In this document: positions 1,851-9,440 of the stretch, in pieces | Position numbering within the stretch: the first letter of the stretch is position 1 | Layout: each line of letters starts with the position of its first letter | Translations under genes and position numbers: made by a program | Assembly (NCBI GenBank): GCA_043816605.1 | Contig: JBDRHR010000102.1 | Coordinates: 1-45,904, forward strand | Direction: 5' to 3' | Source: Nitrospirota bacterium | GTDB lineage: Bacteria; UBA9089; CG2-30-40-21; SBAY01 | Length of the DNA stretch: 45,904 nucleotides | The notes under the pieces: generated by a model | The model's database searches: none | What the model was told of the DNA's origin: nothing | The model's input: the letters and a program-made list of their open reading frames with translations, nothing else

Positions 1851-2005
1851 TTTAGCCACAAAGTCACAAAGAACACAAAGGAGAATAATAATCTTTTGAC
1901 AGGATTAACAAGATGAACATGATAATTTTCTTGTCTATCCTGTTATCCTGTCTAATATTTTATACTATAAAAATTTTCTTGGTGTCTTAGTGTCTTCGTG
2001 GCAAA
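1851..2005. repeat. Nested 9-bp-period inverted repeat elements overlapping the RND stop codon
   Basis: Outer gccacaaagtcacaaagaacacaaag / cttggtgtcttagtgtcttcgtggc; inner gacaggattaacaagatgaacatgat / ttgtctatcctgttatcctgtc. Confidence 0.75.
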
Positions 2006-5000
2006 TTTTCCGCTTCCTATCAAAGACAATATAGACAATCGGCACGATTATCAGGGTGAGTATTGTGGATGAGGTAAGCCCTCCCATAACTCCAATCGCC
2101 AGCCCTTGCATCTCTTCTTCGCCCTCTCGCAAAGCCAGAGCCATAGGCAATAGAGCAAAGAAGGTACAGATAGCCGTCATAAGAATTGGTCTGAGTCTAA
2201 TCCTGGCGGCTGAGATTACCGCCTCTTTTATCTCTAATCCCTTTTTTCTCTGCTGATTGATGAAGTCAACTAAGATAATGGCATTGGTTACCACAATCCC
2301 AACCAGCATAATTATACCAATAAATGAACTGATGTTTAATGATTGTTGGGTAATAAACAATGCCAAAAATACCCCTATTGCGGCAAAGGGGAGAGAGGTC
2401 ATAATGGTCAATGGATGGATTAAGGATTCAAATTGAGCGGCCATAATCATATAGACCAGGACAACAGCAAAGATAAGCATCAGACCAAGGTCACGAAATG
2501 TCCCCCGCATATCCTCATATTCACCACCAAAATCAATCAAATATCCCTGGGGTAAGGGTATTTTTGGTAAAGTATTTTTGACCTCTTTCATAACATCACC
2601 AAGTTTACGACCAGCGAGATTAGCATTAATAATCACCAGCCGTTTCTTATTAAATCGCTTGATATTGCCTGCCCCTTTTCCTTGTTCAATCTTTGCCACA
2701 TCCCGCAGTAAAACTTGAGTCCCAAAGGGTGTAGGGAGGCTGATATTTCCTATATTCTCAATGCTTTTTCGCTGCGACTCGGCAAGCCTGACGCGGATGT
2801 CAATCTCTTCCCCCTTCTGTCTCAACCTTGTCCAAACATCACCACCTACAGCCATTTTAACTACCCCTGCCGCCTGAGCAATACTTAACCCTGCCTGTGA
2901 TAGCTTCTCGCGGTCATAGATTATCTGAAATTCAGGATTCCCCTCTTGAATGCTTGTCGTAACATCAACTACCCCTTCGATCTTTGAAATTACCTGCTTG
3001 ACCTCCTCGGCGATGCTTTTCAAGGTAGGCAGGTCATCACCACTCACCTTGATTTCAACCGGAGCCTTACCGCCCATCATCATACTGCTAATATCATTGA
3101 TTTCAAGAACTGCCCCAGGAATAGAAGTAGCGATTTCCCTTATCTGCTTAGTTACATCATCAGTGGTTACGCTTCTTTCCTTGCGGTCTTTTAAGGCAAC
3201 CATAATCATACCCGTATTGACTCCAGATACCTCACCCATTCCCATTGAACCTGCCCGTGCTCCTCCTGCCTGGTCTTCTCCTGTAAGAGTGAAAACCGTG
3301 TCTATCCCTTCAATCTTGCCGATATTGTTTTCCAGAAAAGAGACCGCCTCAGATGTTTCTTTGAGGGATGTCCCCACAGGCATTTTTAACCTTGCCATAA
3401 AAAAGCCGGAATCAGATTTTGGGATAAATTCCTGAGGAATGAAAACAATCAGAATAAGGCTTAAGACAAGTAAAAACAGGGAGGATGTAAGCACCTTCTT
3501 TTTATGGTCAAGGCACCATAAAAGTATCTTCCCATATCTTTCTCGCAGGGCATGATACCAACCTGTTTCTTTCTCTTCACCGGTAGTGGCGGTTAAGAGT
3601 TTTGATGCCATCATTGGGGTAAGGGTAATAGCCACAAATAGCGAGGCAAATAAGGCATAAGCGACTACCCAGCCAAAGGCTTTGAATAGCTCTCCGGCAA
3701 TCCCTGTTACGAAGACTAACGGAAAGAAAACTGCAACCGTTGTCAATGTGGAGACAATAATGGGCATAGAGACCTCAGTCGCACCGACAATAGCCGCCTC
3801 TTGCCTGTCTTTACCCGCACTTATATGCCGAAAGATATTTTCAATGACCACAATAGCATCGTCCACCAATCTACCCATGGCAATGATGAGTCCGGATAAG
3901 GTCATAATGTTAATGGTGAACCCTTTGAAATACATAAAGATAAAGGCAGTAATGATGGAGAAAGGGATGGCAAGAGAGACAATAAAGGTTGGTCTAACAT
4001 TACGCAAGAAGAAGAGAAGAACGATTACCACGAAAATCCCTCCTTCAATGCCACTCCATTTGGTAGAGTTAATCGTGTTTCTTATCTGTTTAGCCGGTTC
4101 AAATACCTTGTGTATCTTGACATCTGCCGGTAAATACCCTTCGATTATCGGTAATTGCCGCAGGATTTCATCTGTCACGGCTACGGTATTGGCATCTGCC
4201 TCCTTACGGACAATCATCCCTACTGTTTGTTGCCCTTTTAATCTGCCATAGCCTCTTTGTTCCTTAAAGGTATCCTTTACCTCAGATACATCCCTTAGAT
4301 AGACAGGATTACCTTGTTTTATACCGATGATGAGCTTCTCCATCTCCTTTGCTTGACTGAACTCGCCAATAGTCCGGAAGGTGTATTCTGTGGGTCCCTG
4401 GGTTATCTTTCCACAGGTTTTATTCATATTTTCCAGACGCAATTTTTGTGCTATTTCAACAAGTGATATTCCGCGGCTTTTAAGTTTATCTGCATCAACC
4501 TCAATCAATACCTCCCGAATAAGCCCACCCATGGCCATAGCCTGACCAACACCTTTTATTCTTTCTATGCGGGGAACAATAATATCATCAGCTAAATCCT
4601 TTAATTGGGCGAGGTCTCGTTTGCTGGAAATGGTCAAAGCCAAAACAGGCATAGCCCCGATGTCCATTTTGATAACCATAGGGTCTTTCACATCCTCCGG
4701 CAGGAAAGCCTTTATAGTTGATAGCCTTTCCCGAATATCTGCTATAGCACTGTCTAAGTCTGTCCCCCAGTTAAACTCTACCGTGACTAAGGAAACGCCT
4801 TCCTGTGAGGTAGAGGAAATCTTCTTTACATCTGAGACGGTAGAAACAGCATCCTCAATAGGCTTGGTTAGCAATTCTTCTATCTCCTCCGGTGCTACCC
4901 CTTCATAGTTAGTAATGATAGTGGTAACCGGGTAGTCTATGTCCGGCATAAGGTCAATAGTCAATTTAGAAAAGGCAACTATGCCGATGATAATGATAAT

Positions 5001-5057
5001 CAGCATCACCATTAACATAGAAACCGGTCTTTTGACGGATAGTTCTGGGATGTTCAT
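1965..5057 (-). CDS. RND efflux permease, AcrB/AcrD/AcrF (HAE1) family
   Basis: 1030 aa; VDDAIVVIENI and RLRPILMT motifs; 12-TM RND layout. Confidence 0.95.
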   Translation of the reverse strand: MNIPELSVKRPVSMLMVMLIIIIIGIVAFSKLTIDLMPDIDYPVTTIITNYEGVAPEEIEELLTKPIEDAVSTVSDVKKISSTSQEGVSLVTVEFNWGTDLDSAIADIRERLSTIKAFLPEDVKDPMVIKMDIGAMPVLALTISSKRDLAQLKDLADDIIVPRIERIKGVGQAMAMGGLIREVLIEVDADKLKSRGISLVEIAQKLRLENMNKTCGKITQGPTEYTFRTIGEFSQAKEMEKLIIGIKQGNPVYLRDVSEVKDTFKEQRGYGRLKGQQTVGMIVRKEADANTVAVTDEILRQLPIIEGYLPADVKIHKVFEPAKQIRNTINSTKWSGIEGGIFVVIVLLFFLRNVRPTFIVSLAIPFSIITAFIFMYFKGFTINIMTLSGLIIAMGRLVDDAIVVIENIFRHISAGKDRQEAAIVGATEVSMPIIVSTLTTVAVFFPLVFVTGIAGELFKAFGWVVAYALFASLFVAITLTPMMASKLLTATTGEEKETGWYHALRERYGKILLWCLDHKKKVLTSSLFLLVLSLILIVFIPQEFIPKSDSGFFMARLKMPVGTSLKETSEAVSFLENNIGKIEGIDTVFTLTGEDQAGGARAGSMGMGEVSGVNTGMIMVALKDRKERSVTTDDVTKQIREIATSIPGAVLEINDISSMMMGGKAPVEIKVSGDDLPTLKSIAEEVKQVISKIEGVVDVTTSIQEGNPEFQIIYDREKLSQAGLSIAQAAGVVKMAVGGDVWTRLRQKGEEIDIRVRLAESQRKSIENIGNISLPTPFGTQVLLRDVAKIEQGKGAGNIKRFNKKRLVIINANLAGRKLGDVMKEVKNTLPKIPLPQGYLIDFGGEYEDMRGTFRDLGLMLIFAVVLVYMIMAAQFESLIHPLTIMTSLPFAAIGVFLALFITQQSLNISSFIGIIMLVGIVVTNAIILVDFINQQRKKGLEIKEAVISAARIRLRPILMTAICTFFALLPMALALREGEEEMQGLAIGVMGGLTSSTILTLIIVPIVYIVFDRKRKICHEDTKTPRKFL

Positions 5058-5268
5058 TTCTGTTTAATCTCCTCGTTCAAAGTCTGAATCAAATTATCAA
5101 AGCCTGAAAGGCGGCAGAGGTAATCATTGACGGAATTTGGGTAATAATTCCCAAATCTTATCAGACTTTATGAACATTTCTTTACCTCAAGGATAGGATA
5201 CTTAACAATATTGTTAATTATTGTATTTTAACATCTTCAATAATACAACCTTTGCATTCACTTACCAG

Positions 5269-5331
5269 GATATGTAATCGTCCGGGTGATTGCCGGACGA
5301 TTGCCGGACGATTGCCGGACGATTACATATC
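5269..5331. repeat. Perfect 17-bp inverted repeat with an 11-bp tandem expansion of one arm
   Basis: gatatgtaatcgtccgg (5269-5285) / ccggacgattacatatc (5315-5331); gattgccggac x3. Confidence 0.8.
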
Positions 5332-5350
5332 GGGTAGCTGACCCCTTACC

Positions 5351-5398
5351 TAATCAGGTAACAATGAATTACCTGATTATTACCTGATTAATTACCTG
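5351..5398. repeat. Short inverted/tandem repeat (TAATCAGGTAA family)
   Basis: taatcaggtaa followed by ttacctgatta x2; related to 20286-20358 and 22662-22733. Confidence 0.6.
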
Positions 5399-5512
5399 TT
5401 TGTCTTCATCATATAGACTATGCTTCTACCTTATAATAAAGTTTCTGTGAATCGCAAGGGACGGTAACAATTAAGGTTAGGCTCACTGTTTCCATTGCCT
5501 GCATTTACTTCT

Positions 5513-5680
5513 GGAGTTCAGGCTTCAGCCTTTCATCTAACGAATGAAACCCTAAAGGGTAAATTCCATTCATTAATAAAGGGTGAATTCCATTCGTTAT
5601 CGGAGTTAACTCTTTAGAGTTTCATTTGGAATTAAGTCTTTAGAGTTTCATTATCCTGGATTTTACCCTTTAGGGTTTCA
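5513..5680. repeat. REP cluster 1 (five full 23-bp copies plus a partial), overlapping the mcrB 3' end
   Basis: Copies at 5513, 5545 (reverse), 5577 (partial), 5602, 5628, 5658; consensus GGANTTN-stem4-TTYA-stem4-TTCA. Confidence 0.9.
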
Positions 5681-7335
5681 TTTAGTGCATTAATAAAGTC
5701 ATCATCATTATTAAATTCATCTTCTTTCTTAATCCTATACACCTTCTGCTCCGAGTCATAGTACTCCCCGTACTCCCCTAATTTCTTTTTTGTATCTTCA
5801 TCAATTTTAGTTTCTTCAATAAACTTCTTTCCAATTACTACCTTTAACTTCCCCAAATCATCATAGAAATACTCCTGTAACAGAGGCACAATCTCGTAAA
5901 ACCAGACAAACCTCAGGGTTTCAACCTTTTTGTCTTTTTCGGCATTTTTCACCTTCAAAAAGTAGCTGTGTCCAATCTGATGGTCTCTATCTCTAAGGAT
6001 TTCTATCCTTTCGTTGAGTTTTTCAAGTAATTCCTTGAGATTGATTTCACTTCTTTCTATTTCTACTTTCACACCTTCCAATTCCTCTGGTTCAGGCATT
6101 AACTCCAAAAATGTAAACCGTCTCCTCAAGGCTACATCTAACAGAGCAATACTCTTATCCGCTGTGTTCATCGTGCCAATAATATAAAGGTTTGGAGGAA
6201 CGCCAAAGGGTTCTTTTGAATACGGAAGCTCAACAATGAGTTTATTGTCTCCTCTAATTCGCTTATCATCTTCGATAAGGGTAATAAGTTCACCAAATAT
6301 CTTTGAGATATTGCCTCGGTTGATTTCATCAATGATGAGAAGATAGTTATTGTTAGGATAATTATTTGCCTCTTCGCAGATTTGCTTGAAGATACCAGGT
6401 CGAACTGGATAGGTAATGTTACCGTTCCCATCTGCTTCAGGCTTTATGCCTTCAACAAACTCCTCATAGGCATAGGATTGGTGGAAGGTGATAAATTTGT
6501 AATTCTTCCATTCCTCAGTAAGTTTATTTGCCCAATATGTCTTTCCAGTTCCTGGTGGACCGTAGAGGATTAAGTTTTTGGAGTGATTAAGTAATTTTTT
6601 TATCTTACAAATTAGAACTCCATTATTCTCTATTCCTTTTGTCCAGTCTCCGTAAAGAAAATTATCCAAATCCCTAAAATCTTTCTGTAAGGGTAAGTCA
6701 GCTATCTCTCTAATATTAGTGAGTAATTCTACATTATCTAAGTAATCTTTTAGTGTTGAGTTAATTTGCTTTGCTTTGATTCTTTCTATGCCGTATCTCT
6801 TTAACCCTTTAATAGTCGCACCATTAACCACAGGATAAACTGTAGGATGAAGAGCATAGAAAATGGGGGATAAGGTTCCAGATTTAAGACCTTTAATTTC
6901 TAACTTGGAAAATTTCTCAACATCTTCATCTAATCCCTTTTTATTTTTCTTCTCAACCAGTGTCCGTAAAAATTCCTGTATATCTTTTTTATTTTCTTCA
7001 GTAGGTTTAAATTTTCTTGTGTCAATAGTGACAAATCCCACTTTGTTTTTCTCCAAGAAACCAACAAGTTCGTTTTTCTCATCACCACCTATGTTTAGTT
7101 TTTTTATGTATCCTGTTTTTGTTTTTTCCGTTCGTTCTCCATCAGAACACCCAAATATTGCATCTAAATCATCTTTTTCAACAATATCCTTTTTAAGAAT
7201 CACTTCTATCAGTTGTCGAATTAAGATACTGGTATTCTTAGCAATCTCTGATATTTTTTCCCATTCACACTGCTTTTTATATCTTTCAGCATCCTCTATT
7301 ATTTTCTTTTTTACCTTTTCAGTTAACTCTACCAT
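5632..7335 (-). CDS. mcrB: McrB-family AAA+ GTPase (type IV restriction) with an unassigned N-terminal domain of about 230 aa
   Basis: GPPGTGKT, ITFHQSYAYEEFVEG, LIIDEINRGN, MNTADKS (NxxD), ALRRRF, IGHSYF. Confidence 0.92.
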   Translation of the reverse strand: MVELTEKVKKKIIEDAERYKKQCEWEKISEIAKNTSILIRQLIEVILKKDIVEKDDLDAIFGCSDGERTEKTKTGYIKKLNIGGDEKNELVGFLEKNKVGFVTIDTRKFKPTEENKKDIQEFLRTLVEKKNKKGLDEDVEKFSKLEIKGLKSGTLSPIFYALHPTVYPVVNGATIKGLKRYGIERIKAKQINSTLKDYLDNVELLTNIREIADLPLQKDFRDLDNFLYGDWTKGIENNGVLICKIKKLLNHSKNLILYGPPGTGKTYWANKLTEEWKNYKFITFHQSYAYEEFVEGIKPEADGNGNITYPVRPGIFKQICEEANNYPNNNYLLIIDEINRGNISKIFGELITLIEDDKRIRGDNKLIVELPYSKEPFGVPPNLYIIGTMNTADKSIALLDVALRRRFTFLELMPEPEELEGVKVEIERSEINLKELLEKLNERIEILRDRDHQIGHSYFLKVKNAEKDKKVETLRFVWFYEIVPLLQEYFYDDLGKLKVVIGKKFIEETKIDEDTKKKLGEYGEYYDSEQKVYRIKKEDEFNNDDDFINALNETLKGKIQDNETLKT

Positions 7336-7358
7336 TTTCTTTACCTCCTATAAATTTT

Positions 7359-7478
7359 TGAAATTCTAAAGAATTAATTCCATTAAACTTGGAATTCACC
7401 CTTTAGGGTTTCATCTCTACTATAGTTATGAAATTCTAAAGAATTAATTCCAGAATGAAATCCCAAAGGATTAACTCC
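7359..7478. repeat. REP cluster 2 (four copies)
   Basis: 7359 (reverse), 7391, 7429 (reverse), 7456 (reverse). Confidence 0.9.
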
Positions 7479-7487
7479 AACTCCATT

Positions 7488-8018
7488 TCAATCCTTCCAA
7501 CTCAGTGAAAAATCAATAATCGGATATGACTCAAAGCAAGACATTATCCATTTCATTCCATATTTTCGCAAATAATACTGAAAACTTGAATATTGCCAGT
7601 CTTCCATTTGTTTGGCATAGCCATGTTTTACCGGATTATGATGAATATAGTTGAAGTGCATCCACCTATCTTTCTCATCTTTTGGACAATAGTCCCAATA
7701 GTTCTGCCAAATTTTTCGCCCACTTTCTTTATCCTCTAAATTCCATTTATGAGAAGCGCTTCCATGTATTTTTTGAATGAGTTTTGGTATATCATTTCCT
7801 TTACTTGTTTTAAATAAAATATGATAGTGATTGTCAAGAATTACCCATGCCTTAATCTTATATCCAAATTTAGAGTAAACATCTTTTAATAAATCTCTTA
7901 ATTCTGATTTGCGTAAGTCATTTGCTATAATTGGTTGTTTTTGATACACACCTACACTCAAGAAATACCAAGTATCATCATAATACAAATGAAGGGGATG
8001 GTGTAATTTCTGAGGCAT
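7488..8018 (-). CDS. REP-associated tyrosine transposase (RAYT / TnpA-REP, HUH Y1 family)
   Basis: AWVILDNHYH (HUH), WQNYWD, NYIHHNPVKHG, W-x-YSS; flanked on both sides by REP copies. Confidence 0.9.
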   Translation of the reverse strand: MPQKLHHPLHLYYDDTWYFLSVGVYQKQPIIANDLRKSELRDLLKDVYSKFGYKIKAWVILDNHYHILFKTSKGNDIPKLIQKIHGSASHKWNLEDKESGRKIWQNYWDYCPKDEKDRWMHFNYIHHNPVKHGYAKQMEDWQYSSFQYYLRKYGMKWIMSCFESYPIIDFSLSWKD

Positions 8019-8031
8019 TTTTACACTCCTT

Positions 8032-8128
8032 TGAAATTCTAAAGAATTAATTCCGGAATGAAGAATGAAATCCTAAAGGATTAACTCCAGAATCTAATCC
8101 TGGATTTTACCCTTTAGGGTTTCATTTA
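8032..8128. repeat. REP cluster 3 (three copies), overlapping the mcrC 3' end
   Basis: 8032 (reverse), 8066 (reverse), 8102. Confidence 0.9.
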
Positions 8129-9407
8129 ACTCATTCCTCAATTCCTCTTTCTCCTTCTTTAAATCCCGATTAAGGTTCACTGTGCAAATGAGGATTTTTC
8201 TATTACCCTCTTTCACAAAATAATCTTTCTTAACTTCTTTTTCCCATTGCGGATAAAGTAAAATAACCTTTGGGCAGTTATGCCTTTGACTATACGCAAA
8301 CATCTGATACATATCCTCTGATGTAACATCTTTTTCAGTTTCCAGCCGCTTATATTTTGTATCAATAATCAATTTACATTCCTTATCGTTATTTCTACTA
8401 ACAAAAAGAATATCTGGCTGAAGATGGAATGCTCCTTCAATACCATTCTTATAAACCAAATATTCCCCTCTTTTCTGAGTGATAATTTCACACTCGTTAT
8501 AATCTGTATTGTCTAAAATTCTCTCCTTTTTAATAAACTCAGCAATAAACTCCTCAAACAATTTATTCATATCAAAAAGCAAGGAGAAGGTTTCTACCTT
8601 ACCGACCGAAAGTTGAATAGAGGAATCACAAATAAATAATTTAGCCAGATTGAATACGGGTTTATACGCATCTATTAATCTTGTAAATGTAAATTTCTTA
8701 CAGTCATTCGAAGAAATCATTTTATCGCTTACATCTGAAAAAATAAAAGCAAGTTGTCGTAAAAGTCGCTTATTCCCCTCACTCTCGGATACAGTTAATA
8801 AACACTGGATGGTGAATTTTAATATCTGATTAAGAAGATTATCCTCTGTGAATTCATCATAGGCAACTAAAAAATAATGTTTGCTTATTGGATGATGTCT
8901 CAATTGTTTTGTGATAAGCCATTTTCCTTTAAGAAAGCCGGTTTTCTCTTCAACCACCTCATACCTTCGATGAATACCTTTTTTCAATAATTCATCAAGA
9001 TTTTTCGCAAAGAGATAAATAAGCACCTCAAAGAAACTATCTCGCTTTGAAGTAAGACTGGCAATTTCTGACTCCTTAATGGTTAATTTCTTAGTATACG
9101 ATAATAAAAAAAGCAGATTTTGGGTAGCAGTTTGTTTCTTCTGTTTATCCTTATCCTCCATCCCATTTTCTTTAAAATCAAGTTTTGGTAATATCTGAAT
9201 GGTTTTATTTCTGCACCTGATTACCCCTACATAAGAAGTTGCTTCAATTTCCTTCCAACCTAAATTAAAAATTGTTGCCTTTTGTTTTTTATTTATGCGG
9301 TCTATCTGATTCTTGTCCGAATCTGTTAATTCTATCTTCTCTTTAGGGTCTGGCGAAAGGTTTTTATATTCATATTTTTTATGCTCAAAAAATGTAATTA
9401 GTTTCAA
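8094..9407 (-). CDS. mcrC: McrC-family PD-(D/E)xK nuclease subunit
   Basis: YVGVI, IQILPK, FDMNKLFEEF, PDIL...IIDTKYK, DMYQMFAY; TTG start. Confidence 0.92.
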   Translation of the reverse strand: MKLITFFEHKKYEYKNLSPDPKEKIELTDSDKNQIDRINKKQKATIFNLGWKEIEATSYVGVIRCRNKTIQILPKLDFKENGMEDKDKQKKQTATQNLLFLLSYTKKLTIKESEIASLTSKRDSFFEVLIYLFAKNLDELLKKGIHRRYEVVEEKTGFLKGKWLITKQLRHHPISKHYFLVAYDEFTEDNLLNQILKFTIQCLLTVSESEGNKRLLRQLAFIFSDVSDKMISSNDCKKFTFTRLIDAYKPVFNLAKLFICDSSIQLSVGKVETFSLLFDMNKLFEEFIAEFIKKERILDNTDYNECEIITQKRGEYLVYKNGIEGAFHLQPDILFVSRNNDKECKLIIDTKYKRLETEKDVTSEDMYQMFAYSQRHNCPKVILLYPQWEKEVKKDYFVKEGNRKILICTVNLNRDLKKEKEELRNELNETLKGKIQD

Positions 9408-9440
9408 GTATCTGCTTCCTTGCTATTAATTTTAATAATG

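What the first reader, a model, noticed from the sequence alone, without database searches (positions are those of the whole stretch)
5653..8128. McrB and McrC, unrelated proteins, share a C-terminal peptide encoded by an identical 32-bp REP junction
atcctggattttaccctttagggtttcattta is identical at 5653-5684 and 8097-8128 and is read in the same frame. Both proteins therefore contain LNETLKGKIQD at the C-terminus (McrB adds NETLKT from the next REP). The protease remnant at 9574-9774 also ends in NETLK*. Each gene has lost its own stop codon and terminates in REP-cluster sequence. This implies a precise, repeated joining of gene 3' ends to the REP end, like cassette genes ending in a recombination site. 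Alternatively the peptide acts as a shared tag.
Basis: seen in the sequence. Interest (0 to 1): 0.85.

Follow-up and report, generated by a model that had tools for sequence, protein, structure and literature searches.

The report
REP repeats overwrite McrB/McrC gene tails
A small mobile repeat (REP) and its transposase gene have landed inside a two-gene restriction operon, so both genes now end in the same repeat-encoded peptide; this is a known kind of side effect of such repeats, not a shared functional tag.

Summary
The 32-mer is identical at 5653-5684 and 8097-8128, is read in one frame on the minus strand, and gives McrB and McrC the shared end LNETLKGKIQD. It consists of a 23-nt REP hairpin core plus short flanks. 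The REP family has 117 copies in this genome, and 16 of them crowd the 4 kb around the single RAYT gene (7488-8018). Two of the three REP reading frames stop at once; the third is open and reads NETLKGK. In the nearest McrBC relatives mcrC directly abuts or overlaps mcrB. Here a 766-nt block running from REP core to REP core (7359-8124, RAYT included) sits between them. Just beyond it lies what looks like the displaced native mcrC tail and stop (7357-7319), overlapping the mcrB start by 17 nt as in relatives. The McrB tail is interrupted by a 168-nt REP array, and the protease remnant is truncated by REPs. No tail of this kind was found in 238 homologues, and no long ORF runs into any of 35 other copies of this REP type elsewhere. 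Four other genes in this genome take their stop from a REP. REPs overlapping gene ends are already described (PMC3733652). Cassette-like joining and a shared tag are not supported.

The parts
5653..5684 (-). 32-mer copy 1: TAAA + 23-nt ACCC-type REP core (5658-5680) + AGGAT. Encodes (L)NETLKGKIQD of McrB.
8097..8128 (-). 32-mer copy 2: the same REP unit (core 8102-8124). Encodes (L)NETLKGKIQD of McrC; the TAG stop lies at 8096-8094.
5632..7335 (-). mcrB-like gene (567 aa, AAA_5). Residues 552-567 (5682-5632, stop included) are encoded by two tandem REPs.
8094..9407 (-). mcrC-like gene (437 aa, Pfam McrBC over residues 55-386). Residues 428-437 are REP-encoded.
7488..8018 (-). RAYT gene (176 aa, Y1_Tnp). 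HUH (HYH), the tyrosine and the NPVKHG motif are visible. It is the only copy of its kind in the genome.
7359..8124 (.). 766-nt REP-RAYT-REP block ('REPtron') bounded by inverted REP cores with their TGAAA ends outermost. Inferred to be an insertion into the tail-coding end of mcrC.
7319..7357 (-). Probable displaced native mcrC tail and stop (reads KFIGGKENGRVN*). GG is encoded by the mcrB Shine-Dalgarno GGAGG; the tail overlaps mcrB (ATG 7335-7333) by 17 nt.
5513..5680 (.). 168-nt REP array (5 REP cores plus a half copy) directly after L551 of McrB.
5431..5511 (-). Possible displaced native mcrB tail (in frame, 26 codons plus stop). Not shown.
   Evidence: ranks 54 of 571 and 38 of 571: inconclusive
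8066..8128 (-). Inverted REP pair (REPIN-like) that folds into one long hairpin with the mcrC stop codon in the apical loop.
   Evidence: 105-nt stretch 8028-8132, -17.7 kcal/mol, z -3.67, 0 of 200 shuffles as good
9441..9591 (.). REP cluster (4 cores plus a partial copy) between the protease remnant and the mcrC start.
9577..9774 (-). Retropepsin-like protease remnant with an in-frame TAG. Homology ends near residue 58; REPs cut it off.

Best explanation
This is the local footprint of a REP/RAYT system. A RAYT gene with its flanking REPs (7359-8124) sits inside the 3' end of mcrC, at the point where mcrC and mcrB overlap in related operons. A second REP array (5513-5680) sits inside the 3' end of mcrB. 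The REP has one frame without stops, which reads NETLKGK; the other two frames stop at its TGA or at the TAA in its loop. Both insertions fall after the second base of a codon, directly behind a Leu codon (YTA AA|). Translation therefore runs on into the same REP variant in the same frame, and both proteins get the same tail. The peptide is a by-product that is tolerated because the extreme C-termini of both families are variable. Shown: REP identity, copy numbers, the three frames, where homology stops, and the ancestral mcrC-mcrB adjacency. Inferred: that the block is a clean insertion leaving the native mcrC tail downstream, that RAYT made the copies, and that the tail is functionally neutral.
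For: REP identity. There are 117 copies of a 23-nt hairpin whose stem covaries (AGGC/GCCT 42, ATCC/GGAT 38, ACCC/GGGT 13, ATTC/GAAT 9, ACTC/GAGT 3). 16 of the 117, and 6 of the 13 ACCC-type copies, lie in 5513-9576 around the only RAYT. Nunvar 2010 described such crowding near rayt (passages read).

Frames. They are read directly from the sequence. Elsewhere in the genome a DHODH gene stops at a REP's TGA, and a PTS-EIIC-like gene stops at the loop TAA.

Where homology stops. It stops at the junctions. None of 238 homologues carry NETLK.

Ancestral adjacency. In 28 of 80 McrC loci mcrB lies downstream. In 25 of those 28 a start in the McrB frame lies between -146 and +52 nt of the mcrC stop.

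Relic tail. 7357-7319 reads KFIGGKENGRVN*. If exactly 8124..7359 is removed, the split codon gives K and the tail fits the motif ELxx-hydrophobic-hydrophobic-GG. That motif is seen in 5 of the first 9 database homologues and in L034, L036 and L043. GG then lies 7 nt before the mcrB ATG, as worked out from L036's tail and overlap, and the overlap is 17 nt, as in L020 and L021. Among 851 sequences scored (850 alternative right-hand joins plus the present tail), this join ranks 3rd with the top-10 model and 5th with the top-60 model.

Shared flanks. The AGGAT 3' flank is nearly shared by a third copy on another contig (C21, AGAT). In mcrC it pairs within a long REPIN hairpin. It therefore belongs to the REP unit, not to a gene junction.
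Against: The present REP-encoded McrC tail scores about as well against the family tail models as the relic does: 7th and 3rd of the same 851 scored sequences. Natural tails such as ...ELREILKGARE (P0066) resemble it. The profile test alone therefore cannot say which tail is native.

The McrB relic is not supported (ranks 54 of 571 and 38 of 571).

No REP-free allele or close orthologue was found: McrC matched in none of 11 other genomes of the same order.

All three gene-REP junctions here share an A-rich 5' flank and the same codon phase. The two mcr junctions share TAAA, against 10 of 117 REPs genome-wide. Chance explains this only moderately well.

RAYT activity was not tested.
Confidence: 0.8

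Rival explanations
1. Site-specific, cassette-like joining: the RAYT precisely joins the 3' ends of captured genes to a REP end, so that REPs act like recombination sites at cassette ends.
For: Both mcr junctions are identical over 32 nt. Both follow TAAA in the same codon phase, and the protease junction follows an A run in that phase too. TAAA is the commonest 5' tetramer of REPs (10 of 117, against 1.1% of genome positions).
Against: mcrC-mcrB adjacency predates the REPs, and a native-like mcrC tail survives beyond the block. That is insertion into an operon, not capture of cassettes. No long ORF meets this REP type in any of 31 copies in G017/G011 or any of 4 metagenome loci. Four other genes in this genome meet REPs at other positions, frames and orientations. 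The ORF list of the block shows nothing beyond RAYT, mcrB, mcrC, DUF5678 and the protease remnant.
Confidence: 0.07
2. The shared peptide is a functional tag, for example for co-assembly, degradation or localisation of the two subunits.
For: The two proteins are partners and carry the same 11 residues. The REP tail fits the McrC family tail profile well.
Against: None of 238 homologues have it. The tail positions are the most variable part of both families. McrB carries 6 further REP-encoded residues, so the peptide is not terminal there. The sequence is fully explained by a 117-copy DNA repeat.
Confidence: 0.03
3. The REPs replaced the native tails through deletion or recombination between REP copies, and the 'relic' at 7357-7319 is a chance reading of the mcrB ribosome-binding region.
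For: GG arises from any GGAGG read in one of three frames. The McrB relic test is inconclusive. The protease gene was truly truncated, with profile positions 39-92 missing.
Against: The relic join ranks 3rd and 5th of 851 scored sequences. It reproduces the spacing, the hydrophobic pair and the 17-nt overlap seen in relatives.
Confidence: 0.08
4. Assembly artefact: the contig is mis-joined at the repeated 32-mer.
For: The genome is a 250-contig metagenome bin. No listed public contig bridges 8097-8128.
Against: A 153-nt contig matches 5552-5701 exactly, and others match 7356-7585 and 9570-10004 exactly. A crossover within the 32-mer would change what lies downstream, not the gene-to-REP joins themselves. 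These runs may be the source sample, so they are not independent.
Confidence: 0.02

Closest known systems
REP/RAYT systems ('REPtrons'); REPs that overlap or lie inside coding regions (Nunvar 2010, PMC2817692; Di Nocera 2013, PMC3733652; passages read)
   Same: A single-copy Y1 transposase is flanked by inverted short palindromic repeats, with extra copies crowded near it. [quoted passage not shown]
   Different: This REP carries neither a GTAG nor a CGTC tag. The host belongs to a small uncultured phylum. Here the whole RAYT unit, not only a REP, sits inside a gene end and splits a pair of overlapping genes. The list of REP-encoded residues in that paper is in a supplement that I could not open.
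IS200/IS605 insertion sequences (established knowledge, recalled; abstract of PMC6006769 seen in the listing)
   Same: A Y1 HUH transposase, hairpin ends and single-strand mechanics. Insertion happens next to a short specific sequence without target duplication, which fits the clean join inferred here.
   Different: IS200/IS605 elements are multi-copy and their end hairpins are not inverted copies of one repeat. Here the transposase is single-copy and the short repeats are what multiply. Target specificity is not shown here.
Rickettsia palindromic elements inserted in frame in genes (named in the background section of PMC3733652; details recalled)
   Same: Short palindromic repeats are translated as part of apparently functional proteins.
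   Different: Those elements are longer (size recalled) and sit inside genes without supplying the stop. Here the repeat replaces the extreme C-terminus and supplies the stop.
Integron gene cassettes ending in attC
   Same: A structured repeat lies at the 3' side of each gene.
   Different: There is no integrase and no array of unrelated promoterless genes. The two genes form an ancestral operon.
E. coli REPs close to stop codons that lower translation of the upstream gene (Liang, Rudd and Deutscher 2015; recalled, not found in the library by the search)
   Same: A stable REP hairpin lies at or just after the stop codon; here the mcrC stop sits in the loop of a long hairpin.
   Different: Whether this has any effect on expression here is untested.

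Membership tests
RAYT (REP-associated tyrosine transposase) | Y1/HUH transposase fold (Pfam Y1_Tnp) | tested here: met
   PF01797, E 1.9e-10, 41.3 bits against a cut-off of 23. HYH and the tyrosine in ...FNYIHH... are visible in the translation.
RAYT (REP-associated tyrosine transposase) | NP(L/V)(R/K)xG motif next to the nucleophilic tyrosine (Nunvar 2010) | tested here: met
   YIHHNPVKHG in the 176-aa product.
RAYT (REP-associated tyrosine transposase) | Flanked by cognate REPs in inverted orientation; single copy per genome | tested here: met
   REPs lie at 7359-7478 and 8032-8124; the outermost cores are inverted. tblastn finds only weak relatives elsewhere in the genome (26-29% identity).
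REP / REPIN | Short palindrome, many mostly extragenic copies, frequent inverted pairs | tested here: met
   117 copies on 39 contigs, a covarying 4-bp stem, and 48 of 117 flagged as head-to-head pairs by a simple flank-motif test. A single hairpin is weak (-2.6 kcal/mol, no better than shuffles), but the inverted pair folds at z -3.67.
GTAG or CGTC REP superfamilies (Di Nocera 2013) | GTAG or CGTC tetranucleotide at one end | tested here: not met
   Neither tag occurs in the 23-nt core variants listed. The conserved ends are TGAAA and TCC.
McrBC restriction system | McrC family protein next to an AAA+ McrB-type NTPase | tested here: met
   PF10117 at 7.2e-81 and AAA_5 at 2.1e-18. Homologues carry the source names McrC and McrB. 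Activity was not tested.
Integron cassette / attC | Integron integrase and an array of unrelated genes each followed by attC | tested here: not met
   The ORF list of 3000-12000 shows no such gene, and mcrC-mcrB is an ancestral pair. No dedicated attC or integrase profile search was run.
IS200/IS605 | Insertion 3' of a fixed tetra- or pentanucleotide, no target duplication, several full copies | tested here: inconclusive
   The inferred join needs no duplication. Position -1 is A in 103 of 117 REPs, but TAAA occurs in only 10 of 117. There is only one full copy.

The most novel reading that the evidence does not exclude
The REP-RAYT-REP block is a recently moved unit that inserted without target duplication behind TAAA into the mcrC/mcrB overlap of an acquired defence operon. 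The same REP variant was then seeded behind the same sequence, in the same codon phase, at the next gene end. This would be a reconstructable 'filled site' of a whole RAYT unit, with a hint of IS200/IS605-like target choice. The literature I read says signs of such mobility had not been found (PMC2817692).
Probability: 0.25. Interest if true: 0.5.

Novelty: new member of a known kind. Interest (0 to 1): 0.3.

Why it matters
This is mainly a caution for annotation. Identical C-terminal peptides on unrelated proteins can be translated REP sequence, not a motif. Beyond that, the locus gives a fairly clean picture of a RAYT unit sitting inside a gene overlap with the displaced native gene end still readable. 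It could be used to study how such units move and what they do to translationally coupled genes. It also documents a REP family without GTAG or CGTC tags in 12 of 25 genomes searched in a small uncultured phylum.

Tried and rejected
1. A first REP filter and a first genome pattern were each one base too long and found nothing useful. They were replaced.

2. Search for a close orthologue or REP-free allele. McrC matched in only 3 of 41 genomes, G000 included, and in none of the 11 other genomes of the same order. No empty site could be compared.

3. McrB relic tail. The profile scan gave ranks 54 of 571 and 38 of 571, so it is not usable as evidence.

4. Target-site idea. The 5' flanks of 117 REPs show A at -1 in 103, but no fixed tetramer. 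The 31 ACCC-type copies in G017 (30) and G011 (1) mostly sit inside a longer repeat with constant flanks, so their flanks are not independent.

5. Public runs. Word shares were 0.23 and 0.17, all as low-depth contigs from one study that may be the source sample. The joints listed at 5536>8065 have sides of only 21-25 nt and are other REP loci, not deletion alleles. Uncovered parts say nothing.

6. Metagenome scan with the 24-nt REP: 4 loci, all copies of another repeat context, with 6 open codons upstream.

7. Rfam: only plant microRNA-precursor models far below their gathering scores, for example 31 bits against 100. These are generic hairpin matches.

8. Search for the 2015 paper on REPs and translation: not in the library. 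It is cited as recalled only. PMC5009743 had no such passage in the held text.

Supplements of papers were not opened; Additional file 3 of PMC3733652, which lists REP-encoded residues, may bear on how common such tails are. The organism's name was not determined.
Full report
Observation. The 32-mer occurs exactly twice in the window, at 5653-5684 and 8097-8128. No further match appears at up to 3 mismatches, and none of 100 shuffles gave two matches. Both copies lie on the sense (minus) strand at the 3' ends of two ORFs. One is 7335..5632 (567 aa), and the other is 9407..8094 (437 aa). Pfam calls the first an AAA_5 ATPase (2.1e-18). It calls the second McrBC/McrC (7.2e-81, residues 55-386). 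Database homologues are named McrB and McrC by their sources. Both ORFs read the 32-mer in the same frame. McrC ends ...ELRNELNETLKGKIQD*, and McrB ends ...FINALNETLKGKIQDNETLKT*. The third case, the protease remnant, holds only in part. The frame 9774..9577 reads ...VDTGA*NTILSEFDAKEIGLDYHVVSSKNETLK*, so it contains an in-frame TAG. With X at that stop it matches positions 9-38 of 92 of gag-asp_proteas, at 28.1 bits against a cut-off of 28.2. It is a broken gene cut off by a partial REP followed by a full REP.

What the 32-mer is. Its core is a 23-nt unit of the form TGAAA-NNN-TAAAG-NN-T-RANN-TCC. After filtering for a paired stem, the genome (2.62 Mb, 250 contigs; the window is contig C102) holds 117 copies on 39 contigs. 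The 4-bp stem covaries: AGGC/GCCT 42, ATCC/GGAT 38, ACCC/GGGT 13, ATTC/GAAT 9 and ACTC/GAGT 3. A simple flank-motif test flags 48 of the 117 as head-to-head pairs. Between mcrC and mcrB lies a 176-aa Y1_Tnp protein (7488-8018). It carries HYH, the tyrosine and the RAYT-specific NPVKHG motif (the motif definition comes from PMC2817692). It is the only gene of its kind in the genome; the next best tblastn matches are 26-29% identical. Sixteen of the 117 REPs, and 6 of the 13 ACCC-type copies, lie in 5513-9576 around it. This is therefore a REP/RAYT system, with the crowding of copies near rayt that Nunvar et al. described. The same REP pattern occurs in 12 of 25 genomes searched in the phylum, with 348 strict-pattern copies in G017. 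A RAYT 92% identical over its last 62 residues, followed by the same REPs, lies at a contig end in G011 next to a different gene. The REP has neither the GTAG nor the CGTC tag of the two superfamilies of PMC3733652.

Why the same peptide. In the sense orientation the REP has three frames. One starts with TGA. One hits the TAA of the loop after three codons. The third is open in the ACCC and AGGC types and reads NETLKGKI. REP types with T-TAA after the stem stop in this third frame after six codons, which is how McrB ends (...NETLKT*). Any gene that runs into this REP in the third frame gets this tail. Elsewhere in the genome, four real genes take their stop from a REP or overlap one by 3-16 nt. 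A dihydroorotate dehydrogenase uses the REP's TGA as its stop. A PTS-EIIC-like protein stops at the loop TAA. A PIN protein and a nitrate-reductase-gamma-like protein overlap antisense REPs. All frames are thus in use, and McrB and McrC are the only two genes that read through a whole REP.

Where homology stops. In an alignment of McrC with 30 homologues, the last nearly invariant column is L427. This is the Leu whose codon straddles the start of the 32-mer. McrB homologues share a motif F-[IL]-x-A-L that ends at L551, again the Leu before the REP; this alignment used 77 of 79 sequences, 2 being dropped for lacking a Walker A match. Beyond these points, relatives carry variable tails of a few to about 35 residues. 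None of 119 McrC hits and none of 119 McrB hits contain NETLK. A few natural McrC tails do look similar, for example ...ELREILKGARE in P0066 and ...ELNEILKEVSH in P0017.

The ancestral arrangement. 80 McrC loci were fetched from named genomes. McrB lies upstream in 46, downstream in 28, and was not found in 6. The 28 include most of the best matches. In 25 of those 28 the McrB frame has a start between -146 and +52 nt of the mcrC stop, commonly overlapping by 4, 8, 14 or 17 nt. In this subfamily, therefore, mcrC is followed directly by mcrB. In the window they are 758 nt apart, and the space is filled by REPs, RAYT and REPs.

A displaced native tail. The block from the T of the first REP core (8124) to the last base of the last, inverted, REP core (7359) is 766 nt. 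Directly after it, 7357-7319 reads KFIGGKENGRVN*. If exactly this block is left out, the split codon AA|A gives Lys. The tail then follows the pattern EL-x-x-hydrophobic-hydrophobic-GG. That pattern is seen in 5 of the first 9 database homologues (P0004-P0007 and P0009) and in L034, L036 and L043. The GG is encoded by the GGAGG ribosome-binding site of mcrB and ends 7 nt before its ATG, as worked out from L036's tail and overlap. The stop lies 17 nt inside mcrB, as in L020 and L021. A script joined the left side to each of 850 possible right-hand end points and scored the products, together with the present tail, against tail profiles built without the query. This join ranked 3rd of 851 with the 10 nearest homologues and 5th of 851 with 59 homologues. 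Against this, the present REP-encoded tail ranked 7th and 3rd in the same lists. The profile alone therefore does not discriminate; the spacing, the overlap and the exact REP-to-REP borders carry the argument. I read this as a clean insertion without target duplication, at about 85% given the main explanation.

The McrB side. The block 5680..5513 is 168 nt, a multiple of three. The frame then runs on for 26 codons (EVNAGNGNSEPNL...*). The same profile scan gave ranks 54 of 571 and 38 of 571. Whether the native McrB tail survives is therefore open.

The wider setting. In two genomes of the same family (G005, G004), the efflux genes that flank the block here are adjacent: the membrane-fusion protein gene at 10130-11275 and the RND pump gene at 1965-5057. 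The 5-kb stretch holding DUF5678, the protease remnant, mcrC, RAYT and mcrB is therefore an insertion into an efflux operon. No McrC was found in the 11 other genomes of the order, which fits an acquired defence module. A decayed 5' fragment of a second mcrC, with a near-identical upstream sequence and REPs, lies on contig C71.

Is the joining special? The two copies share 4 nt (TAAA) before the core and 5 nt (AGGAT) after it. The 3' flank is nearly shared by a third copy on contig C21 (AGAT). In mcrC it pairs within a long hairpin formed with the next, inverted REP; for 8028-8132 this folds at -17.7 kcal/mol, z -3.67, with 0 of 200 shuffles as good, and the mcrC stop sits in the loop. The 3' flank therefore belongs to the REP unit. 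Position -1 is A in 103 of 117 REPs. TAAA is the commonest 5' tetramer but occurs in only 10 of 117, against 1.1% of genome positions. A weak preference for A-rich targets is possible; a fixed target is not shown. No long ORF runs into this REP type in any of 31 copies in G017 (30) and G011 (1), where upstream open frames are at most 22 codons. None does so in any of 4 metagenome loci either. The pattern is therefore confined to the RAYT neighbourhood of this genome.

Comparison with what is known. Di Nocera et al. 2013 (PMC3733652; passages read) make five relevant statements. REPs are close to or overlap coding regions. REP termini often supply stop codons. [quoted passage not shown] Residues encoded at the termini may not affect function. 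The finding is thus a new example of a known effect. One less usual feature is that a whole RAYT unit splits an overlapping gene pair and leaves a readable native end. [quoted passage not shown]

Limits. No REP-free allele was found and no expression data were examined.

Verdict. It is wrong on cassette-like joining, and nothing supports a shared tag. Interest 0.3; a new member of a known kind.

Noticed in passing
window 5058-10129, compared with L017 (G005) and L018 (G004): The 5-kb stretch DUF5678 / protease remnant / mcrC / RAYT / mcrB interrupts a TolC-MFP-RND efflux operon whose MFP and RND genes are adjacent in two genomes of the same family. In G009 (L016) a different pair of small genes follows the MFP gene; from their sequences they look like a nucleotidyltransferase plus partner, but Pfam was not run on them.
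   Followed up: partly
G000 contig C71, L004:1490-1925: A decayed 5' fragment of a second mcrC (53-91% identity in three tblastn pieces spanning residues 1-130 (61% over residues 34-121), with in-frame stops). It has almost the same upstream sequence and two REPs as the window at 9407-9502.
   Followed up: partly
G017 (L109-L137): The REP family is present in 12 of 25 genomes searched in the phylum. G017 has 348 strict-pattern copies. Most of its 30 ACCC-type copies sit inside a longer repeat with constant flanks.
   Followed up: partly
L006 (G011:C229) 1-330: A RAYT C-terminus 92% identical to the window's is followed by a run of the 12-nt unit GGAGTTAATCCC, then by REPs of the same family, and then by an unrelated gene.
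   Followed up: no
G000 C184:6433, C209:1100, C107:21919, C220:19419: Four other real genes (DHODH, PTS-EIIC-like, PIN, nitrate-reductase-gamma-like) end in or at a REP, with overlaps of 3-16 nt.
   Followed up: yes
window 8094-8126, compared with P0066 and P0017: The REP-encoded McrC tail resembles natural tails of some McrC homologues and scores about as well as the relic in the tail profiles. It may be a tolerated look-alike.
   Followed up: partly
window about 5290-5330 (minus strand): A short tandem repeat (three copies of an 11-nt unit, caatcgtccgg) followed by an inverted stretch lies in the 455-nt spacer upstream of the RND pump gene.
   Followed up: no
window 5513-9576: The REP cores carry neither GTAG nor CGTC. 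The conserved ends are TGAAA and TCC, so this is a REP class outside the two superfamilies described in PMC3733652.
   Followed up: partly
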